Shown in pieces: positions 871-39,554 of a DNA stretch of 64,000 nucleotides. The stretch's first letter is position 1. The number at the start of each line of letters is the position of its first letter. Origin of the DNA: Octopus sinensis (Eukaryota); contig NC_042999.1 in NCBI RefSeq assembly GCF_006345805.1, positions 40,672,001-40,736,000 on the forward strand, written 5' to 3'. The notes below the pieces were generated by a model. It had not been told where the DNA came from, did no database searches, and saw only the letters and a program-made list of their open reading frames with translations. Both the position numbers and the translations under genes were made by a program.

Positions 871-1123
871 AGAGAACATTTTTTTTCACTCACTACTCAT
901 TATATAGCTGCTACTACTTTGTAACTTACTTATGTATCCATTTTTTTTTTTTCGCAATCCTTTTTGTAAAAAGCTCTATTGAATGTTTGTGATTTCTTAT
1001 AATTCTTCTAGTTCGTTTCTTTTTCTCTCATGATTGTGAACACAATCATTTATGTGCGTTTGCGCGTTGTTATGTTCGTATTTTCTTCATTGTCTAATTG
1101 TGTGTTGGTATGTATGTGTGTGT

Positions 1124-1165
<42 letters not shown>

Positions 1166-1544
1166 AATGGAGAAAGAAGTAGAGAAAAAGACAGTGTGAG
1201 AGAAGTAGTTTTGTGCGTGCATATGTGTGTGTCGGAGATGTATGAGCACGTCTTTTTCACGTGAGTAAGTTTGATTTTCTTTTTAGGCGTTTATTTTTTA
1301 TTTCCCTCCTTTTTCCGTCAACAAGATATTACTACATTACATTTTCTAAGCATCAACCCTAACATTTAGATGTAAACATACATATATAACTCATACAGAA
1401 AAATAAATGAAAAAAAAAAAACAAAGGAAAAATACGGAAGGACAGAAGATGATATCGAAGACGAAGAAGCAGAAAAAAAAAAAAAATAGATGACGATAAG
1501 AAAAGAGATAATTAAGATTGCTCTAATAGAGATTATCGTGATTA

Positions 1545-1678
1545 TAATGGTGATGATGACCATGATGATGATGAAGAGGAGCAGGAGGAGGAAGAGGAGG
1601 AGGACAACGACGACGACGACGACAACGATGACAAGACGGTGACAACAGTGAGGACGAAGTTAATGATGACAGCAATGG

Positions 1679-1733
<55 letters not shown>

Positions 1734-1880
1734 GGTGGTGGTGGTGGTGATCATCATCATCGTCATACTGATGATGAAGAGGAGGGGAGAAAGACGAGAA
1801 AGAAGAGACGGAGGAGGGGAGGAAGAAGAGAATGAAGACCATGTTCATGAGGATGACGTTCATGGTGACGACGGCGACGA
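1545..1880. repeat. Compound trinucleotide microsatellite (GAT/GAG/GAC/GGT)
   Basis: Directly visible. Confidence 0.9.
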
Positions 1881-2051
1881 AGATTTTAAAACGAAAAGGA
1901 AGTACAAATCTTTTTTGAGGCACATCAACAACAGTAACTTTATCGAGAGAAGCAGCATAATAGTTTTCAATATTATCATCATTATTGCATTTTGCCCGTC
2001 GCTATATTCTGAATTCAAATCCCGCCGTGAGATTATCACCATCATCAAATG

Positions 2052-2200
2052 TGGCGACCTGGCTGAATATTTACAACGGTGGGTAAAAAAGCTTAGCAGC
2101 ATTTCGTCCGTCTTCACGTTCTGAGTTCAAATTCCACCGGGGGTTGACTTTGCCTTTAACCCTTTCTGCGTCGATAAATTAAGTACCAGTTAAATACTTA
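2052..2200 (+). mobile_element. SINE family B (tRNA-derived), degenerate copy
   Basis: Matches the in-window consensus cgttctgagttcaaattcc...gactttgcc...gtcgataaattaagtaccag. Confidence 0.8.
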
Positions 2201-2559
2201 ATTCGATGTTTCCACACTGGTGACTGTGAGCTTTCTTTGGGGCGGTACATGTGGTTGTGAGAGCATTGGTGGATTTGGTTGGGGTTGTGGTAATTGTGAG
2301 AATGAAGGTGCTGGTGTTATTTTGCTGTGTTTGTGTTCATTGTCTCTTCAGGTATAGTTTCTTTTCTTTTCTTCTTTTTTCGTAATTTTTTTTTTTTTTT
2401 GCTTTTGTAAGTATCTTCCTCATCTTCACAACTGGATAAGGAGGGACTAGCATCCGTAGGATCTATCTCGGGGAGTGCGAGTGTGTCTGTGATAGTGTGA
2501 GCGCGTTGGTGTGAATGTGTGCTTGAGAAAGAGAGTGAGAGAGGGCTGATTTGACGGAT

Positions 2560-3215
2560 ACCCTGGGTGCTTTTCTCCGTTATATGTGGATTACATTCCT
2601 ACACTGTTGTTGGAGATGAGACTACCGTTTTATTAAAAGGTCTCTGTTGTTGCTGTTTTCTGGGGGTGGGTGCGATGTAGGCTGCAGGTGTGGCAGCATA
2701 TCTACCAACATTTAGGGACAGAAGGCTCTCAGGTGGCTTTTGGCCCCACAGATATCACATCTGTGCTTCTTGTCTTCCACTATGCATCTGGATCAGGTCC
2801 AGGGTCTTCTCGATGATTTCTGATTTCCCATGGATTAATATTTCCATCTTGATCACACGTCAGTTCTCCGTACTGCGCTTTTTCTCCTCCAGGAGTGACT
2901 CTGGATCTTGAACCAGACAAGCGACAATCTAAAAGGCGTTTACGTCCATTAGTACGCCATTTACTCTGATTCTAATTGTTCTCTTTGAGAGGTAGGTGGG
3001 ATACAGGACCCACTCCTCAGTCCAGGAGGTTCTCACATTTAAAAAGGACCTTAATGCTGACAAACTGCCTCGCTCTCTGTATATGGGCCAGATCTACTAA
3101 AATTTCTCTGAGGGCCATCCCAACATGACTGATGAACGCTAATTAAGGCCTCCAAGTATTGCCTGATAGGCATTTGAAGTAAATAGTCTTCCTCTCTTTT
3201 ACCTCTATCATTTCG
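2560..3215 (-). mobile_element. Decayed LINE ORF1 (gag-like, probably L1/Tx1) fragment
   Basis: The minus strand at ~2717-2790 reads RCIVEDKKHRCDICGAKSHLRAFCP, a CX2CX4HX4C zinc knuckle. Boundaries are uncertain. Confidence 0.55.
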
Positions 3216-3282
3216 GGAGTTACGAACACTGCGGCATTACTACCCTCAAATTTAATGATATCCTTTGCTTTGTGAGTTCACG

Positions 3283-4867
3283 TGTTTTATCATCGAGTGA
3301 ACTCTTGTCTGCAAATCTTCTTGTCTGTAAGTATGAGATCATGGAGAACCACACTGACTTTGAACAGTGACAAGGAATCTCTGAATGCTCGAGATGTAAG
3401 AATTTTATGCGGCATTTTCCAGGGTGGTTCTCTATCACCACTCCTCTTTTGTGTAGTCTTGATGCATCTCTCGAAATTGCTCGATGATGTACAATACTGC
3501 TATAAAAAGTTTGATAAAAATATAAATCATGGATGATATAAAGCTCTTTGCAAAAATTGACCAACAACTACAGGGATTACTAGCGACTGCTAAACAATTC
3601 AGTGATGATATCAGGGTGGAATTTGGCTACCTTTATCAAAGGAAAAACTGACAGAAACATCCAGCGTTAATCTAGACCAGCAGAATGTCGTAAAGGAGTT
3701 AGAACCAACGGAGAGCTCAAATACCTAGTGGTATTTGAAGGGTACAGAATAAAACATTCAGTGATGTGGGAGAGATCAAAAGAGAATGTTATTGCAGCGT
3801 AAGGGCAATACTCAAGATAGAGTTGAATGAAAAAAGCAGTATCGATGCGATCAATACTTTAGCCATCCCGGTCGGGACTTACACTTTCAATATCATTAAC
3901 TGATGAATTACTGAAATATGTAATCTTGACAGAAAAATACGAACATTGTTGACAATGCATAGAAAGCACTACTCTTAGGCAGATATAGAACGATTTTACC
4001 TGCCAAAAAAAGATGGTGGCATTGGACTTTTATAATTGGAAGTATCAATGAAGATTGCCACAAATGGCCTAGACAACTACTTGAAAAACTGATGACTGGA
4101 TGTTAAAACATGTCTCAAAGTATGAAAACAAGAATACGTCATACTCAGTAACAAACCAGGCCAAAGAATATCGAAGTGAATTTCAAATACAACAAATTGC
4201 AGAATTAGAAGTACTAGACACAAACATAGAAAAAAGTTAAGCGTACGAAAACCCGTGCTAAAATTGCAGCCTTAGATATCCATACTGATAAATGACAATA
4301 ACAACCTCTCAATGGCAAAATCCCAAAGAGAGCTAATAGTGCCAATGTTGACAAAGGCCTTATCCATCAATGGTGAGTGTCTTCTGGCTTGAAATCAGAA
4401 ACTGAAGGGTTTACCATAGCAGCCCAAGATCAATTCCTACCTATAAGGAACTACCAGGCCACCATATCACAGAACGGTAGTAGCCCAACATGACGTGTAT
4501 GTAAACAACAAAATGAAACCATTGCTCATATTGCATCCATGTGCAGTCTTCTTGCGCTTACAGAGTATCTCAACGGGCATGATAGAACAGCAGAATATAT
4601 TCAATGGGTAATTTTCAAACACCTGGAACGGCCCCATGATAAAAACTGGTGGGAACTTAAATAACTCCCAGTGCTTGAAAATGATCACATCTCACTCCTC
4701 TGGAACTTCACTATTCAAACTGAGAGAAAGATAGATGCAAATAGGCCAGATAATTATATTGAAAGACTTCAGGCAAAAGTCGTGCCTCCGTATTGATATA
4801 ACTGTTCCAATCTACATAAATGTATCTGTCAATACCTACCAAAAACTGAGCAAGTATAAAGATCTTA
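3283..4867 (+). mobile_element. R4/Dong-clade non-LTR retrotransposon pseudogene (RT, CCHC, restriction-like endonuclease)
   Basis: Ordered motifs across frameshifts: GIFQGGSLSPLLFC, MDDIKLFAK, RFYLPKKDGGIGL, LKSETEGFTIAAQDQ, VCKQQNETIAHIASMCS, IDANRPD, IDITVP, KLSKYKDL. Confidence 0.92.
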
Positions 4868-5337
4868 ATGCAAAATATGGGTTCAAGCAGATATTTTGCT
4901 CAATACAACCGAGTTGTTTGTCAGTGGTTTGACGTTAACCAGATGAGCACGTCCCTTGATGGCTGACGATACGTCCATCTCTGACCACGAGCAGAGGTTG
5001 TTGGAGAATATCATAACCATATTTTGGAGGAATGCTTTGGCGTTTGAATAATTTACCTCTGGAAACATGGATATTTCGTTCAACATCCTTAAATAACCCT
5101 TATTGAGAAACATTTTGAGTAGAATGGGTTACTCCACTTGAAGAAAATTCTAACTGGGGCCCACCTGCAAGATCATGCACTGTTTATCTTGATATGAAAT
5201 CACCATGTCACACACATGGTTGTGATGCATGTGCCTTGTGTGCACTTATCAGACAGGTAGTTATGATGGATATATTGGGTTTTGTATATTTGTACCCCAG
5301 TGTCCCATTGATGGCAATCACTGCTCTCTGATTTAAT

Positions 5338-5340
<3 letters not shown>
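4868..5340 (+). mobile_element. Non-coding TAA-associated interspersed element, 5'-truncated copy
   Basis: Homologous to the reverse complement of 41620-42371 and 42841-42910; its 3' end runs into (AAT)n. Confidence 0.8.
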
Positions 5341-5413
<73 letters not shown>

Positions 5414-5658
5414 CAGAAACAATTCCTATTATAGTAGGTGCATTAGACATGATAAAAATATATTCAGACAAATACATAACAAAAACACCAGGACTTACAA
5501 ACACATATAACATACAGAAAATTGCACTACTAGGCACTGCACACATCCTACGCAGAACACTTCCCATACAATAACCATCAGAGCATCACAACAAATCACA
5601 GCACATACCCAAGGCTGCGCTCGGTAGTGAAGTGAAAGCTCGTTATAAAAATAAAACT

Positions 5659-5723
<65 letters not shown>
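5341..5723. repeat. (AAT)n arrays at 5341-5410 and 5661-5723 flanking a Dong 3' fragment
   Basis: Directly visible. Confidence 0.95.
5411..5661 (+). mobile_element. 5'-truncated R4/Dong 3' end inserted in (TAA)n
   Basis: Encodes KTETIPIIVGAL...KYITKTPGLTNTYNIQKIALLGTAHILRRT, then a 3' UTR ending in (AAT)n. Confidence 0.88.
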
Positions 5724-5724
<1 letters not shown>

Positions 5725-5798
5725 TGGGGAGTATCATAGTGGGGGCACATCATAGCCATGTGTTGAAAGGAACCATTTGGGTTTGGATAATTCACTGG
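5725..5798 (+). mobile_element. Fragment of the TAA-associated non-coding element
   Basis: Its reverse complement matches 42110-42170 (gtgaattatccaaacc...ttcct..c.acacat.gctatg). Confidence 0.6.
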
Positions 5799-7409
5799 CG
5801 ACTCAACCTTCGTGTTTAATGTAGAAGCATTGACAACGAATCAATCTTTACCTCATTAATTCAGTAGTAGTGCCTTTCCTAAGCACCTCTACAAGGTCCC
5901 TAGCTAGCCTCCATCCAGATTAGAATTCTCTATCACTATTTCCGGCCAGAGCCTTATCAGTTTTAATCTAATAATCCTTTTAATGATCACACACCGCTGC
6001 TGTTGACGATTGCTCCTACCAACTCCCGCTCAATGAGTTCTCTAACCGAATCTTTAAAAGCTTGTACCCCAGGAAAAAGGCATTTATTTCAAGTAAGCAT
6101 GCTTACTGAGGCCTGTTGACTTTGCCGTAAGCTTTGCTGATATTTCATTTCTGCATCCTTTTCAATTCTTCTGTAAACATAACTATCTAGTATAATGTTC
6201 CTGAACCATTTTATGCCTGTGAGCTCCTTTGATTTCAAAGTCGTAATAAAATTCAGTTATATTTCTATAATAAAATATTATTAGTAATTGCATAAAAAGA
6301 TTGCTAAAATATTTGTGCATTGTAGAAGTATAACCGATTTATTGCTGGCAAATTATAACAGCAAAATCTTGTGGACTCACATGCGCTAAATGGACCCCCG
6401 TGATAAGTTACTGTTCTAGAGGGTTTTGTTCTAATATGTAGAACAACCTGGTTTTATGTGATACACTGCGTGTCTAACAACTATGATTCCTTCTGCACCA
6501 AGTCATGTATAACATCTAGATGACTTTGAGCTGTTCTGGAGTCATCGAGACCTGTTTGTTCATGCACAATTCATCCAACACGTTGTTCTTCTGTGTTATT
6601 TCTGCATGCATCAACTATCCATACTGTACTGCAAAAGATGAACCTAACAAAGGTCGATGTCGCACTAATGTAACTCCTTGTATTTCGTCCCTCAATATAG
6701 TTCAGCATTAGGGTTTTTATGTTGTACCTGTACCAGTTGATTTCTTACTTCGTTCTCAAACTTTAAGACTAGACTCGTACTTCTTCCACACGCATTATTT
6801 TGATCAATGTTCGTAAGTCACATAATTTTGCTGACAAGCTTTTCCGATGTTGACATTTTTCCGGATGATGACTCATGTTCATCGCTTTCCTCTGGCTTGC
6901 AATACTGGCAAATAATATAATGCCGTTCCTGAGTTCGTAATTGCAATTTATATTGTCTCCAAATGCCTTCGATTATTATAACGCCGTTTTTATTGTGTAT
7001 TTTTCGAAGTACAAACATTCGTTTTCATCACTCATTCAGCTCATTCAATATTCATGATTTTTTCTGTGTGCTTAATATTTAAAAATAAATTGTTTCCTTT
7101 CAAACCATTTCCGGGCAGTTGTGTATTTGCTACTACCACATTTCCGGTTAACATTTGCTTCAACCTCTCCGTGGGAAACCATTGTAAAACGAAATTTTTT
7201 AAAATGTATAAATTATCAAAAAATGTCAAAGACAAAAAATTAATTTATCTCAGCCTAAGTTAAGAGAGGCAGATTCTCAAAGGATGTGAAGACCTTTGTT
7301 GACAAAATGGAAGAAAAAAATTCTTTCCATCGGATTCAACGTTGCAAATGAAAACCTTCCAGAGAGCTCTGTTAACCACATCTTCTTAGCACAAACAATG
7401 AGTAGCAGA

Positions 7410-7443
7410 ATGATGATGATGATGATGATGATGATGGTGGTGG

Positions 7444-7476
<33 letters not shown>

Positions 7477-7582
7477 TAGTGGTGGTGGTGATGGTCGTGA
7501 TGGTGATGATGACGACGACAACGACGACGATGATGATGATTATGAACATTATGATGATGGTAATAAAAACGACAACAACAAC

Positions 7583-7625
<43 letters not shown>

Positions 7626-7831
7626 GTAATAATAATAATAGTAATAATAATAATAATAATAATAGTAATAATAATAATAATAATAACAATAATAATAACC
7701 ATAAGTTCAAAAACAAATATTATTATCTATTTTCATTATTGTTATCATTATTATTGTTTTGCTTCTCAGAACACCCTGTTTTGTCTATTCTGGTAGATTC
7801 TATGAGAGGGAACAGCAGCCTGCTATTATTA

Positions 7832-7910
<79 letters not shown>

Positions 7911-7948
7911 AATCATAATCATAATCATAATCATAATCATTATTATTA

Positions 7949-7980
<32 letters not shown>

Positions 7981-8020
7981 TTTTTCATTATATTATTATT
8001 ATTATTATTATTAATATTAT

Positions 8021-8083
<63 letters not shown>
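7410..8083. repeat. Compound GAT/GGT/AAT and ATT/ATC microsatellites
   Basis: Directly visible, with a short unique spacer at ~7700-7825. Confidence 0.93.
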
Positions 8084-8085
<2 letters not shown>

Positions 8086-8360
8086 GTTTGACTTTTTGCT
8101 TTATATTTGTCCAAGTTGGCTCCAAGTCTCACCCAGAGACCTCAAGAGACAACAGGCTGGAAGTTCACGTTGTTGTTATGCTTAGTGTGCCATATATTTG
8201 GGGGTTTTTTGGTGTTGTACTACTGTATGTCTAAAAAAAAGAAAGAAAAAACGAAAATTATGTTTGTTTTAAACTTTGAGATTACATAGAAAGTATTTTG
8301 CGTAGGATATGAGCAGTTCCCATGAGCACTATCTTTTGAATTTCTTTCATTTTTGGGTTA
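8084..8360 (-). mobile_element. 5'-truncated R4/Dong 3' end (second family)
   Basis: Minus strand 8360-8282 reads NPKMKEIQKIVLMGTAHILRKILSM*; the 3' UTR ends in (TAA)n. Confidence 0.88.
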
Positions 8361-8362
8361 TT

Positions 8363-8715
8363 ACTGTTATGTTTGGCTTTTGCCTTGTACTTGTACAAGT
8401 TGACTTCAAGTCTCACTCAGAGACCTCCACAGACGACAAGTTAAAAGTTCAAGTTGGTGTTATTACTAGGGTACCATACTTTTGGTTTTGTAAAGTAATG
8501 TTCTAGAGAATGTATGTGAAAGCATCAGAAAATTTGAAGTTTGTTTTAAAAGTAATTTGATTATGAGAGGATAGTGTGATGTTAAGATGACAGTAGAATG
8601 AGTTTGCTATTATGTACATTTAAAAGTAGTTTGACACTGTTTACAGATCAAAATATTTTGGAGAATAGATAAACAATATTTTACGTAGGATATGAGCAGT
8701 TCCCATGAATGCTCT
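8363..8715 (-). mobile_element. Second tandem R4/Dong 3' end, older copy
   Basis: Reads MGTAHILRKIL at 8677-8710; its 3' UTR is homologous to 8084-8190 (caagtctcac.cagagacctc). Confidence 0.75.
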
Positions 8716-8777
8716 CAACCTTCTACCAATTGGGCAATGGCGTCAGTGGATGTTCTGTTTTAGAAATGTATAGAGGG

Positions 8778-8821
8778 CTAGCAGAGATACCCGGCGTTGC
8801 TCGGGATTAAAATGCTATAGT

Positions 8822-8875
<54 letters not shown>

Positions 8876-9755
8876 GCTGAAACAAATGATACGGGAAAGT
8901 GCAGCATTGACGACAAGATATTTTGTAGGGTAAACGATTGTCTAATTCAACTAAGCGACATATAATACGTCTATTTGAAGGATTCCATGTCTTAATCTAT
9001 GATGGAAAATTGGGAGTTATATATATATATAATATAATATTGACATACTTTGACATAAATTTGGAGTTATATATAAAATATATGATATTGACATACTAAC
9101 AATTATAAATGTTCGAGTGTACCTGAAATAATCCCACTTTTGAAATTGTGGATCTAGATGTACATAAAGTTATAAATAATATCATATAATTATTGAATTG
9201 GAAGACCTTTCGAACAGAAAATGTCGATGAATAATATGTCTTACAGGAGATGGAGGTTCGTGTCCCAGAGGTAATCTTCCACTGTTTCTATCCCATATAG
9301 GTTTTCATCCCAATTTTTAAGTGCAATAATATATAACTTTATGTGCTTCGAGATTTACGTCGGGAAGTGTTAGCCAACTAGTTAGGTTACACGAGGCCGA
9401 ATCAAGCTGTTATAAATAATAGTATACGTAGCTTCCATCCTACAAAATGTGTTGAGTACCATCGCTAGCGCGAGGAGCGAGCCCCTGCTACCTTCCAACA
9501 GCTGACAGGATCGTGGGACTGGCCGGTTTCGAGCTATTTGGCTCGCGTAAGCCGCGCACCTGCACAAAGGAGTGTAGGCAAGATCCGCTTCTTCCAGCGA
9601 TATATTGTAACCAAAATGGTCATCGGTCACTGATTTGCAACAAGCAAAATAGCTAGTTACAAAATCTCAAGAAGAGATAGAGTAGTAAAAACGTGCGTAT
9701 TTAGTTCCACCTTAATACATCAAGAATTCAAATCGAATGTCTCCAATCAACGTGC
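8778..9755 (-). mobile_element. Non-autonomous Helitron-like element
   Basis: The 3' end on the minus strand is cccgagcaacgccggg...CTAG, the same hairpin as 20719-20746. The 5' end is not resolved. Confidence 0.65.
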
Positions 9756-9787
9756 CAAGTATATGTGTGTGTTTGTGTGTCTGCGTG

Positions 9788-9854
<67 letters not shown>

Positions 9855-9865
9855 TGTGTGTGTGT

Positions 9866-10191
9866 GAAGGCGCATGGCTCAGTGGTTAGAGTGTCGAGCT
9901 TACGATCGTGAGGTTGTGAGTTCGATTCCCGAACCGGGCTATGTTCTTGAGCAAGACACTTTATTTCACGTTGCTCCAGTTAACTTAGCTGTAGAAATGA
10001 GTTGCGATGTCACAAGTGCCAAGCTGTATCGGACTTTGTTTTTCTCTTGGATAACATCAGTGGTGAGGAGAGGGGAGGCCAGTATGCATGGGCGACTGCT
10101 AGCCTTCCACAAACAATCTTGCCCTGACTTGTGCCTCTGAGGTTAATTTTCTAGGTGCAATCCCATGGTCATTCATGTCCGAAGGGGCTCT

Positions 10192-10192
<1 letters not shown>
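9866..10192 (+). mobile_element. tRNA-derived SINE family C2
   Basis: Has an A box (tggctcagtgg) and B box (gagttcgattccc); homologous to 47381-47720. Confidence 0.9.
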
Positions 10193-10275
<83 letters not shown>

Positions 10276-10276
<1 letters not shown>

Positions 10277-10585
10277 TGGAAGGTTTGGAGATGATGAGCA
10301 GGTATTATATATTAGAAGAAATGAGGTACTCAGAAGATCGGATGGTTTATATTTACATATCTTTATTTATATATTACATTTTTTATATATATATCATATC
10401 ACTTAGATCATTAGCGCTTTCTCCCATTCTAGTGGGGTTTTCAAATCAAACTTAGTTTGAAAACCCCACTCGAATAGGAGAAAGCGCTAATGATCTAAGT
10501 GATATGATATAAGTATAAAAAATGTAATATACAAATGAATATCTGTAAATATAAACCATCCGATCTTCTGAGTACCTCATTTCTA

Positions 10586-10587
<2 letters not shown>
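10276..10587. mobile_element. Fold-back PLE-like fragment between (TA)n arrays
   Basis: Inverted arms of ~135 bp (10311-10450 / 10455-10587) with a ~35-nt one-sided extension; degenerate HHR-like motif TTGAAAA-cccca..GAAA-gcgc-TA. Confidence 0.65.
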
Positions 10588-10654
<67 letters not shown>

Positions 10655-10910
10655 TTATAAATTCTATATACTCCGATTTAAAGCGATATCTAACTAAACT
10701 ATTGACTGAAAAGTGACGAGCTAATAGGCTAGAATAGAACCCATATATCAACGCTAACATGACTCTTTGCGTATCCGATTGAGCCAATTTGCATACATAT
10801 ATACATATATGTGCCTATATATATATATATATATATATATGTGTGGTGTGTGTGTGTGTGTGTGTGTGTGTGTTGTGTGTGTGTGTGTGTGTGTTGTGTG
10901 TGTGTGTGTG

Positions 10911-10944
<34 letters not shown>

Positions 10945-10974
10945 TATATATATATGCTTCTATTAGTTTACACG

Positions 10975-11174
10975 TTTTACGTTTCAGCCTTAAGGCTGTG
11001 GCCATGCTGGAGAACCACCTTTAATCGAACAAATAGACCACAGAACTGATTCTTTGTAAGCCTAGTACATATTCTATCGGTCCTTTGTCGAATCAGTAAG
11101 TAACGAGGACGTAAACACACCAGCTTCGGTTGACAAGTGATGTTGCGAGGACAAACACACAGACACACACACAT

Positions 11175-11207
<33 letters not shown>

Positions 11208-11370
11208 CGACGGTCTTCTTTCAGTTTCCGTCTACCATATCCACTCACAAGGCTTCGGTCGGCCAGAGCTATAGTAGAAGACACTTGCCCAAGGTGCTAC
11301 GCAGTGGGACTGAACCCGGAACAATGTGGCTGGTAAACACGCTACTTACCACACAGCCACACCGGCGCCT
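10975..11370 (-). mobile_element. SINE family A (tRNA head, internal CA/TA microsatellite)
   Basis: Full-length match to copies such as 49523-49940. Confidence 0.93.
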
Positions 11371-11396
11371 ATACACACACACACACACACACACAC

Positions 11397-11449
<53 letters not shown>

Positions 11450-11495
11450 TATATAATATATATATATATATATTATATATATACCGGAGCAAAAA

Positions 11496-11533
11496 CTGTC
11501 TGATGAACGGCAACGAGAAACTCAGAGTAACAG
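11496..11533 (+). ncRNA. Minimal type-I hammerhead ribozyme motif in an 83-nt insert (11484-11566) within (TA)n
   Basis: ctgt-CTGATGA-a cg GCAA cg a-GAAA-ctcaga-GTA-acag. Stem I is ctgt/acag, the stem II closing pair is mismatched, and AATAAA lies at 11560. Confidence 0.75.
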
Positions 11534-11565
11534 ATTTTGTTGAATTTTCTGCTGCTTTAAATAAA

Positions 11566-11738
<173 letters not shown>

Positions 11739-13394
11739 GACAGTTGCAAGACAGTTTTTACATTGATATTATTCCCATAGAAGAAAATAATTAAGAAGAC
11801 GGCAGGCATTAGGCTCAATAAAGAGTTTTGGGAAATACGGCCATAGAGCTTGAAAAGCATAGTATGACAGTCTTGAATGCTGAGCTTTCTCACCTAAGTG
11901 ATGAATGTTAAGAATTTATAAATATGATGAAGTGTCCAATTTATTGAGAATACCTGAATACATGCTATTGTAAAGTGACATAAGAAATCAATACTTATGT
12001 TTACACACTCATTTTCCAATAGGTTTTCACATTACATTAGGTTCTTTATGGGTGTTTTAAGTGTGATTCATTGTTCTTTGTTGAATTTTGGAACTTGCAG
12101 CAAATAATTAAACGAATGTTTTTCAATACAGCTGTATTGTTGCTACTGATTTTTATTGTAATCATTTAGCAATAACAACGCATAGGATAAAGCTCATTGT
12201 CTCTTAAATCCACTGATTATTTTTTATTTTCCTCTTGCTATAAGTAGTTGCACCAGCATTAACAGTAGCAGCAGCAATGACGTAGGCAGAGGTGGTTATG
12301 TTTGTTTTGGGTGGTGGTGGTGGCGAGTTGATACCACTGGCATAAAGAAAGACTAGATTCAGCATTGAATTTTTAGGTCATAACACGAAGCAACTTCCCT
12401 GGTCTCAGAACATGGTCATACAGGTTTCCATGATACTGCAAGAGCATAAAATAATAGCAAACCTGTGTATTGTAGATTGCGCTGAGTGGAAGACCTTAGA
12501 GCACAGCATCCGATGTTTATAAACTAGCTTTTATTAATGCTTTAGTAAAGAACGTAAGAACGAATCAGAACGTTACGCTCAGGTAATGACTTTATTCATG
12601 AACGGAAGAGATAGTAATAATTCCAAGATGGAATACAAAAGGATAAACTGCAATTTCAATTGTGCACACTGTAAAAGATTAAGTCTGTACGGAACTCAAG
12701 CGCCGTGCGGTGGAAAAAAAGAATAAGACTGTGCGGAAATCAAGCGCTGTGCGGTAGAAAAAAAAATCCATAAAATGAGTTAATGTATAAAAATCTCACC
12801 TGATACAGCCAATAAATTCTTACGCGATTGGATGTATAGATGTAAGCTAAAAGAATAAACTACATAGTCGTAAGAAAGGGTCCCATGACAGAATCGTGTC
12901 ACCTGATTGGATGAATAAAAATAGATAATCAATAAACAATGTGTCTTGTCGAGATAAATGGGGTTGTCTCATACTTCAGAAACAAAAGTCCAATAAAAGT
13001 CTTAGGGAAATATCTAAATGAAATACGGATCGTGAAAAGAAAATACGAATATATGTTAAACTGCTTAAAGCGTACAGAATGCCAGTATGAATTTTGGATT
13101 GAGTTTTTAAAGCGTTATGTTTCAACGATCCAGAACACACAGACTATTCTGTACTCGCTATGACACGCGGTTCTTCACAGAAGAATATGGAAGTTTCGAC
13201 TATGAGCTGTATATACATTTTGTAACTGTTTCATCTGTGTCTTCCTCTTTCTATGAATTCTCTGTCCAAACCTACTCATTTTTATAAATCCCCTGTTTAA
13301 CGTTTGTTTTTGTATCTTCCTCTTTGTACATCGACCTCTACTGGTTAATTAAGAAAAGACTATAGTTGCTTGTCAGAAGCAATAGCACACAGCT

Positions 13395-13616
13395 CAAAAT
13401 ACTTAGCGATATTTCGTCCGTCTTGACGTCCTGAGTTCAAATTCCGTCGGGGCCTGACTTTGCCGTTCATCCGACCGAGGCCGATGAAATGAGTACCAGT
13501 TAAGCATTGGAGTCGATGCAATCAACTTATTCCTCCAAAGTTACTGGCCTTGTGTCAAAATCTGAAACCATTATTATTATTATTACTACTACTATTATTA
13601 TTATTATTATTATAAA

Positions 13617-13676
<60 letters not shown>

Positions 13677-14835
13677 CATTATTTATTTATTTATTTTAGT
13701 TATTTAAAGAACGAACTGGCAGAATTGCTAGTGCGGTATTTCGCCCATCGCTACGTTCTAAGTTCAAAATCCGCCGAGGTCGACTTTCGATGTCGATAAA
13801 TTAAGTACCAGTTGAGTACTGGGGTCGATGTAATCGACTTAACCTCCCCCCACAAATTTCAGGCTGTGTGCCTATAGTAGAAGGGATTATCATTACTATT
13901 ATTATTATTATTATTATTATTATATTATTATTATTATTATTATTATTACTATTGGCAGTGAACTAGTAGAATCGTTAGCATGCCGCACGTAATGCTTAGC
14001 GGTGTTTCGTTCGTATTCCATTCTGAGTTCAAATTCAGCCGAGGTCGACTCTGCCTTTCATTCTTTCAGGATCGAAAAACGATGTAACAGTGAATCACAG
14101 GGGTCGATGTAATCAGCAAGTCCCCTCCCACCGAATTTGATTCTTCGTGCTTTAGTAGGACTGATTATTACTATTCATTTTTAAGGCGGTGAGCTGGCAG
14201 TTTCGTTAGTACCCCGAGCGAAATGCTTAGCGGTATTTCATCTACCGTTACGTTCTGAGTTCAAATTCCGCCGAGGTCGACTTTGCCTTTCGTCCTTTCG
14301 GGGTCGATAAATTAAGTACCAGCTGTGCACTGAGGTCGATGTAATCGACTTAATCCGTTTGTCCGTCCTTGTTTGTCCCCTCTAGCTCCTTATGGGCAAT
14401 AAAGAAATAAGAATCGTTAGTACGCCGGACAAAGTAGCTAACGGTATTTAGTCCGTCTTCACCTTGTCAGTTCAAATTCCGAAGAGGGGGCAACTTTGCC
14501 ATAGACCTCTTAGTGGTTGATTAACTAAGTATCACCTGATCAGTGGAGTTCGTGTAATCGACTAGCCCCGTTCAATCCAAACCTTTAAGGTTTGCACAGA
14601 AGCCATTATCAATAATTTTAAGACAGCAAGCAGGCAGAATTGGTAAAGCACCGAAAAATAATACTTTACAGTATGTTTGCTTCCACCTTATTTTTAAATT
14701 CGAGATTACATCTTGCCGAGGTCAGTTTTGTCTTTTATCCTTTGTGGATCGATAAAATAAAGTACCCGTGAAGCACTTGAGTCGATGATAATGATTAATC
14801 CCTTCATCTCAAAATTGTTGGTCTTCTGCCCAGAA
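13395..14835 (+). mobile_element. Cluster of about six same-orientation SINE family B copies interleaved with (ATT)n
   Basis: The gagttcaaattccgccgaggtcgac...aagtaccag...gtcgatgtaatcgac core recurs at ~13430, 13760, 14025, 14255, 14470 and 14715. Confidence 0.88.
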
Positions 14836-14887
14836 ACCTCCTCCGCGTCCACCTCCACCTCATCATCATCATCGCCATCAACACCAT

Positions 14888-14888
14888 C

Positions 14889-14970
<82 letters not shown>

Positions 14971-14993
14971 CTAGTAGTAGTAGTAGTAGTAGT

Positions 14994-15081
<88 letters not shown>

Positions 15082-15147
15082 TCAGCAGCAGCAGAAGCAG
15101 TAGCAGCAGCAGCAGGGGTGTTGGTGATTGTGGTGGGGATGATAGTA

Positions 15148-15189
<42 letters not shown>

Positions 15190-15190
15190 A
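14888..15190. repeat. Alternating (TAG)n/(CAG)n microsatellite
   Basis: Directly visible. Confidence 0.95.
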
Positions 15191-15374
15191 TGGCGGTGGT
15201 GGTGAGGGGATGTTCGGTAGTAGTAGGTAGTGGTTGTGGTGGGCTATGCAACTTGAAATCAAAGCGTTTGTTACTTGAAGGACGGTAATAATTTATATAT
15301 TTTGCCAACACGAATATTTTTTTTTATTGCACAACACGCAACACGAGAAAGACAATAAGAGAGCTAAAATAAGA

Positions 15375-16185
15375 AGCGGAGCTTCGTGGTATACTGTTTA
15401 TTTCCCAACCATATCGTTCTGGTTTCAGTCCCATTGCATGTTACCTTGGGCGGATGTGTTTCGCAATGATCCCCAGGCCGACCAAAGCGTTGTCAAATTT
15501 GTAGACAGAAACTGAAAGAATCCTGTTGTATACAAAATATATGTATATAGGCGCAGGCGTGGGTGTGTGTTAAGAAGCTTGCTTCCTAACCACATGGTTC
15601 TGGATTCAGTCCTACTTCGAGACACTTTGGGCAAGTGTCTACTACTATAGCATCGAGCCGATCAAAGACTTGTGAGTGGATTTGGTTGACGGAAACTAAA
15701 AGAATCCTATCGTATGTGTGTGTGTGTGTGTGAGTTTGTGTCTGTGTTTGGCCCCCTCCGTTGCTTGACAAATGATGTTGGTGTGTTTACGTCCCCGTAA
15801 CATAGCGGTTCGGCAAATGTACCCGATAGATGAGCACCAGGCTTACAAAAATTAAGTCTTGGGATCGCTTTCTTCAACTAAAAATAGCGGTGCTCCAGTA
15901 TGGCCGCAGTCAGATGGCTGAGACAAGTAAGTGAATAAGAGAATCTATGTGTATATATGTCTTTGAGTTTGTGTTTTGTTTGTCCTCCGCCATCGCTTTA
16001 CGACAGATGTTGGTTTGTTTACGTTCCTGTAAGTTAAACAGTTTGGTGAAAGAGACCTACGGAGTAAGTACCAGACCTCAAAAAAACCAGTACTGGAATC
16101 GATTTTGTTTGACTTAAGCTCTCAAAAGCGGTACCCCGGTATAGCTGCAGTTCAATGGCGGAAACTAGTGGAACGTTAAAAAAGA
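15375..16185 (+). mobile_element. Three adjacent SINE family A copies (5' half 15375-15530, full 15550-15942, 3' half 15945-16185)
   Basis: Match the family A consensus. Confidence 0.88.
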
Positions 16186-16814
16186 AAAGACAAATAAACA
16201 GAAACAATTTGAACATTAGATAAACAATAAAAAAAAGTGTGAAAACTAAAAGTATGGAAGAAACGAATAAATAATCTACTGCAATATTTTACAGATTTGT
16301 TAGTTCATACTGATCGACTTTTAATTCATTCTAGCTTATTTGTCGATGGTTTAAGCGGCTTATCTGACTTGCGTAGAAGCAGAAATCATCAATAATTAAC
16401 AGAGTGAGTGAGTGAGTGAGTGAATGAGAGAGTGAGTGAGAGAGTGAGTGAGTGTTTGAAGTGATGGCGTCGTGAATGAACAATTGATTAACTGACCTGA
16501 ATGAGTTTTATATTGTGGTTTTTCAGTGTTTGGAAGGTGGAATAAAGAGAGAGAGAGAGAAGCGAGGAGATACAAATGGAATGAAAAAGGGAGAGAAGAA
16601 ATTGAAAGTGTGTGGGGAGAAGATATGAAGTAAGAGACATACAGATAGGGAGAGAGAGGGATTTGGAAAGAAAACAGAGGACGTTTTAGAAGTATTCTAT
16701 AAGTGTGAATGTGTAAAGAAATGCAAGCAGTGGTGAAGGACAGGCCAGAAAAAAGCATTGTCTAAATAAAACAGGAAACTAATAGGATTATATATGTGTA
16801 TATATATGAATGCG

Positions 16815-23378: not shown

Positions 23379-23734
23379 TACATGTATATACATGGTCATT
23401 CACATAAGCGAATGCAATTAACGGCCAATGAGAGGACGTGCACAAGAAATGTATAAGCCTGACGCTCGGTGAAAAGAGAAAGTTTGATGTTTTGAGCATA
23501 CTGCTTCGACGGAAGAGAGAAAGGCAAAAGTCCAAAGAAGGAAAGCAAATCGTCAAATTCACGTGTGTAATTACGTTATATATGCCCTTCAAACCCATAC
23601 GGTGCTCCGGCATGGCCGCACTCAATGACTGACAATAAAAGCTAAAATAGAGAATGAGATAGAATTTCGTACAAAATTTCTGAAGGAACATTATTTACAT
23701 TTGATGGATATTTGTCCTCATCTTGTTTGTTGTT

Positions 23735-23772
23735 AACTCAACGTTTCGGTTGATCAGCCTTCATCAGGTGTC
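23735..23772 (-). ncRNA. Minimal type-I hammerhead motif (left arm)
   Basis: gacac-CTGATGA-a-ggctgatcaacc-GAAA-cgtt-gagtt, with a palindromic stem III (AACGTT). Confidence 0.7.
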
Positions 23773-23837
23773 TTGGGGAAATTTCGAACCTGGGTTCTCA
23801 TTCCCAAGGTATTTTTATGATGTTATTATTATTATTA

Positions 23838-23909
<72 letters not shown>

Positions 23910-24080
23910 TCAACGCCTGGAATCGAACTCGGAATCTTGGGGTTAGTAGCCCGCGCTCTTAACCTCAAGATACCGAGTTCGATTCCAGGCAGTGACTTGA
24001 ATAATAATAATAATAATAATAATAACAATAACATCGAAAAATACCTTAGGAATGAGAACCCAGGTTCGAAATTTCCCCAA

Positions 24081-24126
24081 GACACCTAATGAAGGCTGGA
24101 GGGTATATCAGTCGAAATGTTGTGTT
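24081..24126 (+). ncRNA. Minimal hammerhead motif (right arm, core mutated)
   Basis: gacac-CTAATGA-a-ggctg..cagtc-GAAA-tgtt-gtgtt; carries G5A. Confidence 0.6.
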
Positions 24127-24667
24127 AACAACAAACAAGATGAGGACAATATCCGTCAAATGTAAATAATGTAAATAATGTACGTAATTCCTCATCTCTT
24201 AAATACAAAACTGTATTTTCTGAAGGAACCTTAAAATTTTTCAGCTTAATCTCACCTTACCGTCTTTAGGAGAACGCGTAGCGTATTGGATGATATAAAC
24301 CGAAATAAATTACCTTTAAAAACACGGGATTATCACGGCTACAAGAATTGTAACATTATATCTGCTGGATAAAGGCTGATATTTTTGCAAAGATGTTCAA
24401 AGATGCAATAATTTTGATTATATGTCTGTTGGATAAAGACTAACTTTTTTTTTTTTTGGTAAATAACTGCATCTCTAAAGCATATTCATGAGTCAATTAT
24501 ATTATAAAAGGCATTTCTGATATGTCTGACAGACGTTTGCAATTATATTTCCCAGACTGAAATATAATCTTAAATCTACTCTGTGGTATATTGCATAATC
24601 ATATTATGGCACTAATTAATAAATCTCACTCAGAAGAGACGATATTTAGTGAATGTTGAATGAATAT

Positions 24668-24948
24668 GTAAACTGCGCATATTTCTTTGGTTGCTTGTGA
24701 AGTATTTTTCCCTTTACAGAAAAAGAAGATCATTAAGTACCCAAAATGAACTTTCTTATCTTCCATTTTAAGGGTTTACAGAATTAACAAAGGTTATATG
24801 AACATAAACCTTCTTCCACGAAAAGATAGCATAAACTGTGCTCTAAATGGAGTTGTAGTCAAATCCTATTTCATGGGCTCTACCATGTTCTAAAATAAGT
24901 CGAAAGGTAAGCTATTATAAATCGGCACGAACTTTCCGGACAACCCAA
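24668..24948 (-). mobile_element. mariner 5' end (TIR plus transposase N-terminus)
   Basis: TA|TTGGGTTGTCCGGAAAGTTCGTGCCGATTT TIR; the ATG at 24766 gives MEDKKVHFGYLMIFFFCKGKNTSQATKEICAVY. Confidence 0.8.
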
Positions 24949-25357
24949 TATATATAAACATAGTCGTATATATGTGCGAAGGCAGGCATTTACTGGAAGA
25001 CCCTGTCTATGTGTCTGCCAAGATATATATCAGAATCTGCTTACGTGTTTGTATGTAGGAATATGTAAGTAGGGATAGAAATTTTGTATGTATAAACGCT
25101 TGTATGTTCAGCTACGTGGGCTTTTAGAAGTGTACACACGTATTTACGTAAACATAATATACATGTATGTATGCATGTATATTATATATATTATATTATA
25201 TATTATATATATATATATATTATATATGTTAAGGTATGTAGAAAAATACAACATGGACAAGAACGTATAAATCATAGAAGACGATACAATAAACATGGAC
25301 AGACATTCGAACCCCTCAGTCTTCAGTCAAGAACCGGATCATCGTAGTAATTTCGGC

Positions 25358-25390
<33 letters not shown>

Positions 25391-25889
25391 ATATATATAT
25401 ATATATATAAATATAATATAATATATATATATACATGCATACATACATGTATATTATGTTTACGTAAATACTTGTGTACACTTCTAAAAGCCCACGTAGC
25501 TGAACATACAAGCGTTTATACATACAAAATTTCTATCCCTACTTACATCTAAATACCTACAAACACGTAAGCAGATTCTGATATATATTTTGGCAGACAC
25601 ATAGACAGGGCCTTCCAGTAAATGCCTGCCTTCGCACATATATACGACTATGTTTAAATATTGGGTTGTCCGGAAAGTTCGTGCCGATTTATAATAGCTT
25701 ACCTTTCGACTTATTTTAGACATTTAGAACATGGTCCCATGAAATAGGATTTGACTACAACTCCATTTAGAGCACAGTTTATGCTATCTTTTGTGGAAGA
25801 AGGTTTATGTTCAGATAACCTTTGTTAATTCTGTAACCCTTTAAAATGGAAGATAAGAAAGTTCATTTTGGGTACTTAATGATCTTCTT
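24723..25889. repeat. Inverted duplication with ~460-bp arms (24723-25181 / ~25430-25889)
   Basis: The arms are near-identical reverse complements; the spacer is (TA)n + a 130-bp stub + (TA)n. Confidence 0.93.
25227..25357 (-). mobile_element. Short PLE-like terminal stub in (TA)n
   Basis: Non-repetitive insert bounded by TA arrays at the palindrome centre. The PLE call is inferred from context. Confidence 0.45.
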
Positions 25890-26110
25890 ATATATATATA
25901 TATATATATATATATAGGATATATATTTATACATGTGTATTGGAGCTTGATTTTATAAGCTTCTATATTCACAAATCTGGACAGCGAAGCGTTATGACAT
26001 ATGTCGACGAATGTAATTTTTACGCTATTTAATAATACGTAAATACTCACGGATTGATAGGCAGACAAACAGACAGGCATGCATAATTAAATAGATCTGC
26101 CCACACAAAA

Positions 26111-34277: not shown

Positions 34278-35122
34278 GTGAGTCAAAAAGTAATGCCATT
34301 TTCTTTATTTTATGTGAAGTTTTTGATAAAAATAACTGAAAATTTTCCCAGTTATAAAAGATTATATCATTTTCGCTCTGAAATATTTTGTTTCTTACTT
34401 TTCAGGTTTTTAGACTGCTAAGGAAAATTCAAAATGGCTGCCCACATAGAGTTACGTCAAAAAGAAAGGGCATTGATTGAATTTCTTGTTGCTGAGGTGG
34501 AAACCCCTGTGAAAATACACCGACGATTAAAAAATGTCTTTGAGGACAATACTTTAGTTTATAGCAAAAGATGAAAAGGTGGGAACTGTGAGTGTAGTCG
34601 ATAAATACCGTTCTGCCGTCTATCCGCTTCTGTGAATCCTGCCAATATGGCTAAAGCAGATGCTCTGATCAGAGAAGACAGGCGCATAACACTTGATGAG
34701 TTGGCAGAAAAACTTGAAGTGAGCCATGGAAGTGCATACAACATTGTCGAATCACTTGGCTTTTCAAAAGTGTGTGCCCGTTGGGTACCGAGAGAGCTGA
34801 CTACCGAACGCAAGACTGACAGGGTCAATGCCTGCACTAAACTTCTCGAAGAAAGTCAAAGAGACATTATTCCAGTGACGACGAAGTGAAAACTCTAGTG
34901 AAGAAATAGCTCAAAGAACAGTCAGCAGAATTTTACGGAGCAAGGATACATGGTCTCATTCAAAGGTAGAGCATTGCTATTGACAGAAATGGTGACTATG
35001 CTAAGAAGTAGGGATGTATTCCACAGAGGACCAGCTTCGTTTTGATGTATGGTACATGTTCCTGTGAGGGTAATTATAACTGTCCCTAAACAAAATGGCA
35101 TTAACTTTTTGACTCACCCTCG
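34278..35122 (+). mobile_element. Internally deleted mariner element
   Basis: TIRs gtgagtcaaaaagtaatgccatttt / aaaatggcattaactttttgactcaccctcg|TA; encodes MAAHIELRQKERALIEFL...RRITLDELAEKL...KVCARWVPREL, and IDRNGDY near the 3' end. Confidence 0.9.
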
Positions 35123-38642: not shown

Positions 38643-38882
38643 ACATATATATATATACATATATATATATTTGTTGAAATGGAAAGATGAATTATCTTGT
38701 TACGGATATTCAAAAATTTAACCGATACCTGGGTAGCAAAAATCACAGCAGAAAAAACACGGTTGGAGATATGACCATATGAGGTTGCAACCGTGCGTTG
38801 GGCGCGGATAATTGAAGTTTAATATAATTAGTGAATGGAAGAAATGGAGTTGAACGAAGATTGTACAGAATTCCTTTATACA

Positions 38883-38962
38883 TTCTACACATGTTTCAAA
38901 GGCCACAATTTTCCAAATTCTGATTAAATAAGGATACCATATTGCAGCTTTCTCTTCAGGAA
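38883..38962 (-). ncRNA. Type-I hammerhead ribozyme, canonical core
   Basis: ttc-CTGAAGA-g aaagctgcaat...attgtggccttt-GAAA-catgt-GTA-gaa. Confidence 0.8.
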
Positions 38963-39100
38963 AAACCAGGAATTACGTGTCAGAACAAAACAAAACAAAG
39001 GCGCAGCAGAGCAATTCGAACGAGGACGCTCCTTAAGAGCCATGGGTACCATGGCTCGCGCCTTTGTTTTGTTTTGTTCTGACAACGTAATTCCTGGTTT

Positions 39101-39179
39101 TTCCTGAAGAGAAAGCTGCAATATGGTATCCTTATTAATCAGAATTTGGAAAATTGTGTCCTTTGAAACATGTGTAGAA
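39101..39179 (+). ncRNA. Type-I hammerhead ribozyme, canonical core
   Basis: CTGAAGA at 39104-39110, GAAA at 39165-39168, GTA at 39174-39176; stem I is ttc/gaa. Confidence 0.8.
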
Positions 39180-39238
39180 TGTAATAAAAGGAATTCTAGT
39201 ACAATCTTCGTTCAACTCCATTTCTTCCATTCACTAAT

Positions 39239-39294
<56 letters not shown>

Positions 39295-39379: not shown

Positions 39380-39554
39380 GCAATAATAATTCTCTAAATG
39401 AGATATAGACAGTAACTGCTCCATAACATAAGGGACTAAAGCCATCTGAATATGGCTAGGGACAGGGCAGGGTGGTGGGGGTGTTGCAACAGTACCCCCC
39501 CCCACCCTGCCCTGTCCCTAGCCATATTCAGATGGCTTTAGTCCCTTATGTTAT
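39380..39554. mobile_element. Fold-back element in (TA)n with ~60-bp arms and a ~43-nt extension
   Basis: Arms at 39423-39482 / 39494-39554; homologous to the reverse complement of 58600-58688. Confidence 0.75.

What the first reader, a model, noticed from the sequence alone, without database searches (positions are those of the whole stretch)
24668..25889. Inverted duplication of ~460 bp of neighbouring DNA centred on a (TA)n-embedded stub
Seen: 24723-25181 is copied in reverse at ~25430-25889. The duplicated block is heterogeneous: a mariner TIR and start codon plus unrelated sequence. The mariner reading frame continues ~55 nt past the left arm but is cut by (TA)n on the right, so the right arm is the derived copy. 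Inference: the fold-back step that inverts PLE ends copied flanking DNA, through 3' transduction or a template switch at the target. It also creates two outward-reading mariner ends and a long potential hairpin.
Basis: partly seen in the sequence, partly recalled or inferred. Interest (0 to 1): 0.7.

Follow-up and report, generated by a model that had tools for sequence, protein, structure and literature searches.

The report
Fold-back scar at a TA repeat
About 500 bases of ordinary neighbouring DNA sit here twice, as mirror images around a 130-base stub of a repeat family inside a TA run; the copy was likely made when a DNA end cut in the TA run folded back on itself, likely while the stub (a likely Penelope-type jumping gene) was being inserted, and two look-alike scars without any stub occur elsewhere in this genome.

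Summary
The inverted duplication is real: 24723-25181 against 25430-25889, about 94-95% alike. The mirror continues through the left TA tract up to the stub (arms about 505 nt). The right arm was copied from this locus: both arms share about 12 changes against the mariner family. The non-mariner part has only these 2 hits in the genome, so no donor was found and it is not a multicopy MITE. A run from another study carries alleles of both arms. The stub is the fixed end of a young, TA-targeting, 793-bp tandem non-coding family with Penelope-like anatomy; no coding partner was found. Best reading: fold-back synthesis from a break in the TA tract, likely during the stub's insertion (0.45), or with the stub arriving later (0.33). 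Two stub-less twins of unique DNA turned up in 1.2 Mb. Family insertions carry copied flank more often than control TA sites (4/124 vs 2/387, p=0.03), but not inverted copies (1/124 vs 2/387). Close precedents exist at yeast breaks and human L1 insertions. This scan noted similar scars in other genomes (e1-9899385, e1-9865145). It is a mutational scar with no sign of function.

The parts
   Evidence: one full-length hit among 2 candidates; table 8 (X1, X23, X24)
24668..24722 (-). Mariner sequence running on beyond the left arm: marks the left arm as the resident template
24723..24953 (-). Left arm, mariner 5' end (terminus about 24950, ATG 24766 on minus), about 92% to family copies
24955..25181 (.). 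Left arm, unique host DNA (low-complexity towards its right end)
   Evidence: 2 hits of 2 candidates for 24955-25175
25182..25227 (.). Left TA tract with five TT interruptions; part of the mirrored block; its last 6 nt also match the family's terminal ATATAT
25228..25357 (-). 130-nt stub: fixed end (inferred 3' end, sense on minus) of a 793-bp tandem non-coding family; 1 substitution and 1 deletion from the family majority; cut at a truncation point shared by 19 places in the genome
25358..25384 (.). 27 nt of pure TA ending in a register shift (TT); possible fold-back or joining point (inference)
25385..25429 (.). Mirror image of the left TA tract (AA interruptions with matching spacing)
25430..25655 (.). 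Right arm, inverted copy of the unique DNA; complex difference at 25549-25557
25656..25889 (+). Right arm, inverted copy of the local mariner end (ATG 25846, 14 codons); carries a 4-nt deletion plus a short duplication at 25721-25735; ends on TA with 1 nt of microhomology
25889..25931 (.). Outer TA tract: likely the other half of the original target tract

Best explanation
The locus holds a mirror copy of about 505 nt of its own left flank around a 130-nt stub, and it likely formed in one insertion event in which a DNA end cut in the TA tract and extended with the stub folded back on the self-complementary TA and copied the flank. Steps: (1) a Penelope-type endonuclease nicks the top strand in the TA tract (inferred); (2) the TA 3' end primes reverse transcription of the family RNA from its fixed end and stops after 130 nt at a common truncation point (end structure shown, chemistry inferred); (3) the extended strand, ending in TA, pairs with its own upstream TA tract with the stub looped out, or copies the stub and loses that copy between TA runs (inferred); (4) a polymerase, host or RT, copies the left TA tract, the unique DNA and the mariner end to 24723 (local origin and extent shown); (5) the new strand is displaced and joined to the other TA end with 1 nt of microhomology (junction shown, pathway inferred). 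The product is a mutational scar. It would form a long hairpin only if single-stranded or transcribed. Fold-back from a TA break with either timing of the stub: about 0.78.
For: Local origin: both arms share about 12 differences from the majority of 28 mariner copies (counted by eye), and the unique part has only these 2 hits. The mirror runs to the stub and includes the tract's interruptions. The copied side is the stub's fixed-end (primer) side. Ages overlap: arms differ by 6 isolated substitutions in 459 nt (1.3%, CI 0.5-2.8%, about 0.65% per arm), and the stub by 1 in 130 (0.8%, CI 0.02-4.2%). Family insertions carry low-copy flank DNA copied across the site more often than control TA sites: 4/124 vs 2/387 (p=0.033), or 6/124 vs 5/387 at a looser copy cut-off (p=0.028). 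L309 has 42 nt from about 470-510 nt upstream joined straight to the stub's truncated end. L274, the only one of 130 with its own inverted copy, also mirrors 43 nt of its immediate flank. Outer junctions show 1-3 nt of microhomology, as in yeast local foldbacks (0-5 bp, PMC11724301 section 15). Inverted duplications and templated local DNA occur beside new L1 insertions (PMC11702581 section 7 and legends S9C, S10).
Against: Two TA-centred, TA-ended mirrors of unique DNA have no stub (L130, L211:2401), so a stub is not needed. Inverted flank copies alone are not enriched at family insertions (1/124 vs 2/387, p=0.57; 2/124 vs 3/387, p=0.60). The enrichment rests on direct copies, one of which (L298, 92%, 228 nt from the element) may be unrelated, and the p-values are uncorrected. 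The control merged nearby TA tracts and so missed L211:2401. The stub itself is not mirrored, although a hairpin in the adjacent 27-nt TA would be the nearest fold-back; this needs an extra step. The longer piece of L274's mirror (113 nt) starts near the tail-less end of another repeat family and may be a separate insertion. Both arms carry their own derived changes (left 24772, 24775; right 24798, 24820, 24877-88), so dating is coarse. No coding partner of the family was found. Yeast foldbacks are mostly under 34 bp, up to about 150; POLQ insertions reach about 30 nt; 505 nt is long.
Confidence: 0.45

Rival explanations
1. Two steps: host repair of a spontaneous break in the TA tract (cruciform cleavage) first made a perfect fold-back, X-TA-X'-TA, and the stub later landed in the central TA, where it acts as a spacer.
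For: Stub-less twins L130 (TA 42 centre, arms 197 nt, 0 substitutions) and L211:2401 (TA 26 centre, arms 165 nt) have the same anatomy; removing the stub leaves a centre of about 38 nt of TA. This explains why the stub is not mirrored. TA repeats break through cruciform cleavage and are repaired by MMEJ with templated duplications in human cells (PMC13645644 passages). There is no excess of inverted copies at family insertions.
Against: Near-identical family copies are rare: 2 at 95% or more in 1.2 Mb with 846 TA tracts, so a chance hit on a mirror centre is uncommon unless such centres are hot targets. The ages overlap. Family insertions do copy flank DNA.
Confidence: 0.33
2. RNA-templated local copy: a minus-strand transcript covering the flank (read-through from the stub or a host intron) was reverse-transcribed from the opposite strand's TA end, starting at 24723 and ending in TA.
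For: A Penelope-type protein cuts and extends both strands and starts inside the RNA without homology (PMC11167929 parts 1-2). In this genome the inverted arms of multicopy PLE-like units begin on TA. The outer junction has only 1 nt of microhomology.
Against: It needs a transcript, re-insertion within 30 nt of its own source, and truncation exactly at the stub boundary. No host exon was found among 53 window ORFs. There is no poly(A) at the outer end.
Confidence: 0.1
3. 3' transduction: the whole 24668-25889 block is one PLE-type unit (55-nt tail, arm, stub, inverted arm) brought from a donor locus and replacing other sequence.
For: The 55-nt overhang resembles the tails of PLE palindromes (43-125 nt here; 30-40 bp in PMC8557442). 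Three runs show another continuation after 24672.
Against: No donor copy of the unique DNA exists in the assembly. The left end is not on a TA tract; the nearest lies 1477 nt away. Run X24 shows the other continuation and also both arm alleles at about twice flank depth, which suggests that the mirror also sits on chromosomes with the other junction.
Confidence: 0.05
4. Assembly artefact: a long-read fold-back chimera or two haplotypes joined head to head.
For: No read or contig seen here spans the structure. Runs X1, X2 and X23 gave almost no cover of the unique arm (a filter drops records). In X24 one 185-nt contig carries only left-arm letters at 25022, 25054-62 and 25139.
Against: Each arm keeps ancestral mariner letters where the other is derived. 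X24, from another study, shows three versions at 24999-25000 (left, depth 4; right, 2.7; right plus one change, 3) and depth 11-14 on the arm against 5.7 on the flank. These depths are under 5 each, so this support is modest.
Confidence: 0.04

Closest known systems
Inverted duplication and templated local DNA beside new human L1 insertions (PMC11702581; passages, section 7, supplement legends S9, S10)
   Same: Retroelement cDNA joined to an inverted copy of target DNA, explained by self-annealing of a resected end, synthesis, displacement and ligation.
   Different: In Fig. S9C the reciprocal end folds back, so the element lies outside the mirror. Here the primer-side flank is copied and the stub lies inside the mirror. 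The fold-back homology here is the TA tract itself. This is an inherited allele, not cultured cells with forced L1.
Local foldback inversions at yeast double-strand breaks (PMC11724301; abstract, sections 15 and 22)
   Same: One end primes on an inverted microhomology, the new strand is displaced and joined to the other end with 0-5 bp of microhomology, leaving an inverted repeat.
   Different: Most are 5-34 bp, at most about 150; here 165-505 nt. No retroelement and no microsatellite there.
Tandem/inverted insertion units of endonuclease-bearing Penelope-like elements, including TA-targeting Naiads (PMC8557442 passages; PMC11167929 parts 1-2 of 4)
   Same: Fixed 3' end, 5' truncation, partial tandems, TA target, inverted piece at the 5' end of the insert.
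   Different: In those units the inverted piece is the element's own sequence and both ends sit in the target repeat with a short tail. Here it is unique host DNA plus an unrelated mariner end, and the resident arm runs on into ordinary sequence.
TA-repeat fragility repaired by Pol-theta MMEJ (PMC13645644 passages)
   Same: Breaks at TA runs; TA supplies the microhomology; templated short duplications.
   Different: Described for extrachromosomal DNA in cancer cells. The passages seen do not describe flank-sized inverted copies.
Long target-site duplications of Dualen LINEs (median 900 bp; PMC9977147 passages)
   Same: Retroelement insertion with hundreds of bases of duplicated flank; matches the direct copies at L059 and L317.
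   Different: Direct orientation; staggered nicks cannot give an inverted copy.

Membership tests
Non-autonomous Penelope-like element (stub family) | One fixed end and one variably truncated end | tested here: met
   All 130 distinct insertions were picked by the fixed end; the other end is spread over the unit, 53 of 130 at positions 100-149. Two adjacent termini: 864 and 32 exact matches.
Non-autonomous Penelope-like element (stub family) | Partial tandem arrays (pseudo-LTR layout) | tested here: met
   793-bp unit in head-to-tail partial tandems.
Non-autonomous Penelope-like element (stub family) | Microsatellite (TA)n target | tested here: met
   Fixed end on TA in 125 of 130, other end in 93 of 130. 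Most loci were fetched with TA in the pattern, so the first figure is biased upward.
Non-autonomous Penelope-like element (stub family) | Inverted 5'-truncated own copy in some insertions | tested here: met
   1 of 130 (L274); related subfamilies form palindromes (L095, L334).
Non-autonomous Penelope-like element (stub family) | Shared end with an autonomous RT + GIY-YIG element | tested here: inconclusive
   No ORF in the unit and no partner among loci in hand. The genome has many GIY-YIG frames (147 matches of 150 scored, several in 760-880 aa frames), but their flanks were not seen.
Non-autonomous Penelope-like element (stub family) | Hammerhead ribozyme in the terminal repeat (absent in Naiads) | tested here: not met
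   No Rfam hammerhead hit in L031, L033, L041 at E up to 5. The stub folds worse than all 200 shuffles. A CTGANGA...GAA motif is kept across subfamilies but lacks the canonical core as I recall it.
MITE / multicopy foldback element | The whole unit is dispersed in many copies | tested here: not met
   Unique part has 2 hits of 2 candidates; only the two arms cover query 84-541 among 40 scored.
3' transduction | A donor locus holding element plus the same flank | tested here: not met
   None in the assembly; a lost or unassembled donor cannot be excluded.
Local foldback inversion at a DNA break | Inverted copy of DNA directly next to the break, templated locally | tested here: met
   Shared private mariner changes, uniqueness, mirrored TA interruptions.
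Local foldback inversion at a DNA break | Inverted homology at the turn and 0-5 nt of microhomology at the capture junction | tested here: met
   Self-complementary TA at the turn; 1, 3 and 2 nt at the outer junctions of the window, L130 and L211:2401. So short an overlap is also expected by chance.
Local foldback inversion at a DNA break | Pre-event allele (flank-TA-flank) and the enzymes involved | not testable with these tools
   Contigs break at TA runs; no related genome is held.

The most novel reading that the evidence does not exclude
TA tracts in this genome are a running source of host-DNA palindromes of 150-500 bp (about 4,500 genome-wide by extrapolation, 95% range 550-16,400). They are made by Penelope-type endonuclease/RT complexes that switch from RNA to the target's own DNA, often leaving no cDNA at all. 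This locus would be the caught-in-the-act case, with 130 nt of cDNA left in the loop, and the same fold-back would explain the elements' own inverted 5' ends.
Probability: 0.2. Interest if true: 0.65.

Novelty: new variant of a known kind. Interest (0 to 1): 0.36.

Why it matters
How Penelope-like elements make their inverted ends is called unresolved in PMC8557442 (passages). Insertions where host DNA was mirrored can separate DNA fold-back from two-sided priming on RNA, because host DNA is not in the element's RNA. The stub-less twins suggest a countable class of inherited structural variants at TA tracts, which annotation would file as MITEs or unknown repeats. If such mirrors lie in introns they would supply long double-stranded RNA (predicted; transcription was not tested). 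The single locus has no sign of function.

Tried and rejected
Rfam on three loci gave only TA-driven miRNA-like noise and no hammerhead. Search for a coding partner of the stub family: ORF scans and motif scans of loci in hand found none; the L038 match is mere neighbourhood across repeats. The flanks of the genome's GIY-YIG frames were not seen, so the partner question stays open. L190 and L209 first looked like host-flank mirrors but are multicopy families (584 and 2814 candidates) and were dropped. L140 was dropped because its mirrored piece is the end of another repeat family. L098, L099, L211:6478-8812 and window 39423 have TA within 43-99 nt of the other end and were not tested for copy number, so they were not counted as host mirrors. 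X5 laid nothing, and X1, X2 and X23 gave almost no cover of the unique arm; this is no evidence either way. No haplotig of the left flank exists in the assembly. TT/AA polarity alone is weak: 25% and 23% of 116 interrupted tracts are TT- or AA-dominated; the matching spacing carries the argument. The DNA folding energy printed had an implausible sign and was not used; the RNA fold has no shuffle control. A Pfam scan of 53 window ORFs found no host gene, only transposase remnants and low-complexity noise. Look-ups of earlier notes by sequence and near this place were empty. Eight literature searches listed no paper on inverted host-flank copies at Penelope-like insertions; subscription journals and most supplements were not searched.

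Full report
OBSERVATION. The inverted repeat is there. 24723-25181 aligns to the reverse complement of 25430-25889 with 23 of 465 columns differing: six isolated substitutions, two complex changes and two small indels. The left 230 nt are the 5' end of a high-copy mariner (1467 candidates; Mos1-type HTH in a family copy). The stretch 24955-25175 is unique, with 2 hits of 2 candidates. The mariner runs 55 nt past the left arm and is cut by TA on the right. Each arm is therefore about 505 nt and reaches the stub; 27 nt of pure TA and a register shift separate stub and mirror.

ORIGIN OF THE RIGHT ARM. Against 28 other mariner copies, both arms share about 12 private changes, so the right arm came from this copy and is not a second insertion. 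Each arm also has its own derived changes (left 24772, 24775; right 24798, 24820 and a deletion-plus-duplication at 24877-88), so neither is a noisy copy of the other. There is no third copy, which rules out a multicopy MITE and leaves no donor for transduction.

INDEPENDENT DATA. No contig spans the structure. Run X24 (another study) has three versions at 24999-25000: left-arm, right-arm, and right-arm plus one change, at depths 4, 2.7 and 3. Its depth on the arm is 11-14 against 5.7 on the flank. That fits two copies per chromosome, but the depths are low, and one X24 contig shows only left-arm letters at three other differing sites. X1, X2 and X23 gave almost no cover of the unique arm and X5 laid nothing. 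Three runs continue differently after 24672, which points to a separate polymorphism at the flank/mariner junction.

THE STUB. 25228-25357 is the end of a 793-bp non-coding unit that occurs in partial tandems (1315 candidates). Of 130 distinct insertions with both flanks visible, 125 have the fixed end on TA, the other end is variably truncated, and 1 has an inverted own copy. This is the anatomy of Penelope-like elements (PMC8557442 passages). The genome holds many long GIY-YIG frames, but no coding partner and no canonical hammerhead were found. So it works like a non-autonomous PLE; membership is likely, not proven. The window stub differs from the family majority by 1 substitution and 1 deletion; its age range overlaps that of the arms.

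SURVEY OF ARBITRARY DNA. In 120 stretches of 10 kb plus the window (1.264 Mb), 23 inverted-repeat rows had at least 60 low-copy bases. They collapse to 17 loci, 9 of them with one outer end on TA and none with both, against 1.3% of random boundaries. Six of the nine have TA again within 43-125 nt of the other end. The two of these that I searched are multicopy families, that is, ordinary PLE-type palindromes with a tail; the other four were not tested. The remaining three are the window locus, L130 and L211:2401. The last two are unique in the genome, centred on 42 and 26 nt of TA, end on TA with 3 and 2 nt of microhomology, and have no stub. Two in 1.2 Mb extrapolates to about 4,500 (550-16,400) genome-wide. 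Their arms are nearly identical, so they need read support.

SURVEY OF THE FAMILY. Low-copy flank DNA is copied across the site in 4 of 124 family insertions and 2 of 387 control TA sites (p=0.033); with a looser cut-off, 6 of 124 and 5 of 387 (p=0.028). For inverted copies alone the counts are 1 of 124 and 2 of 387 (p=0.57). The control merged close tracts and missed L211:2401, and the tests are uncorrected. L309 (42 nt from about 490 nt upstream joined to the truncated end) and L274 (own inverted copy plus 43 nt of mirrored flank) show template switches to local DNA at insertion sites. L274's further 113 nt may be another family's end.

MECHANISM. Shown: local template, extent, which arm is the copy, TA at the turn and at the outer joint. 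Inferred: a break in the TA tract, fold-back of the 3' end on TA, synthesis of about 505 nt, displacement and joining to the other TA end. I put this at about 0.78. Whether the stub belongs to the same event is open: same event 0.45 (primer-side geometry, overlapping ages, flank copying at family insertions, rarity of the family among TA tracts); stub later 0.33 (stub-less twins, stub not mirrored, no excess of inverted copies). RNA-templated local copy 0.10, donor transduction 0.05, artefact 0.04.

COMPARISON. Yeast breaks give local foldback inversions by the same logic, but mostly 5-34 bp (PMC11724301 abstract and sections 15, 22). TA runs are break sites repaired by MMEJ (PMC13645644 passages). 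A PLE protein cuts and extends both strands at AT-rich DNA (PMC11167929 parts 1-2 of 4). Long direct duplications flank Dualen insertions (PMC9977147 passages). A recent octopus repeat annotation has no passage on such palindromes (PMC13282606 passages); that this genome is an octopus-like one is my guess from its repeats. Eight searches listed no report of host-flank mirrors at PLE insertions; coverage excludes most subscription journals. Notes e1-9899385 and e1-9865145 describe related scars in other genomes; they are unchecked AI notes and not independent support.

VERDICT. A real, inherited fold-back scar and a variant of a known repair outcome: longer than usual, on the primer side, and turned on a TA tract. 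No host gene was found in the window and nothing suggests function; the hairpin matters only if the region is transcribed. The value lies in the class, not the locus: a genome-wide count could test how Penelope-like elements invert their ends. Interest 0.36.

Noticed in passing
Likely a deletion (or insertion) polymorphism with 5 nt of microhomology; the letters were not shown.
   Followed up: partly
L130:4972-5401 and L211:2401-2750: Stub-less mirrors of unique DNA, centred on TA and ending on TA at one side; arms nearly identical, so not yet separable from assembly fold-backs.
   Followed up: yes
L059 (= L058, L067): A 170-bp flank occurs three times in direct orientation around a 1.5-unit insertion of the stub family, each copy between microsatellites.
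   Followed up: partly
L309, L317, L259, L274, L302, L050: Other copies of flank DNA at or near family insertions: 42 nt templated at the truncated end (L309); 74 nt direct (L317); 79 nt captured by a neighbouring element and mirrored (L259); 43 nt mirrored (L274); a mirror on the far side (L302); a TA-centred mirror 130 nt away (L050).
   Followed up: partly
stub family, genome-wide: Two adjacent fixed termini (864 and 32 exact matches), recalling the two adjacent RT start sites of PMC11167929; truncations pile up at unit positions 100-149, just past a conserved CTGANGA...GAA motif.
   Followed up: partly
window 24950 and 25659: The duplication leaves two mariner 5' ends in reversed orientation 700 bp apart; in principle a substrate for reversed-end transposition (recalled from Ac/Ds), but the family is about 8% diverged.
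   Followed up: no
window 23688-24216, 10317-10584, 38820-39245, 39423-39554: Further palindromic repeat units in microsatellites; the first has a minimal-hammerhead-like motif by eye and an (ATT)n centre.
   Followed up: no
L209 family (L236-L247): High-copy family whose inverted arms start at a fixed point 83 nt inside the end; L239 links it to a long ORF and a GIY-YIG frame: the textbook PLE tail layout.
   Followed up: partly
L211:6478-8812: A 2.3-kb nest of 98-99% identical direct and inverted copies of one low-copy sequence with TA at several joints; copy number in the genome not tested.
   Followed up: no
L096:4200-6870: Nested inverted copies of AT-rich DNA without TA ends, resembling a mitochondrial insert by eye (recalled, untested).
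   Followed up: no
window 34605-34886 and 59016-59973: Tc1/mariner transposase remnants of other families.
   Followed up: no
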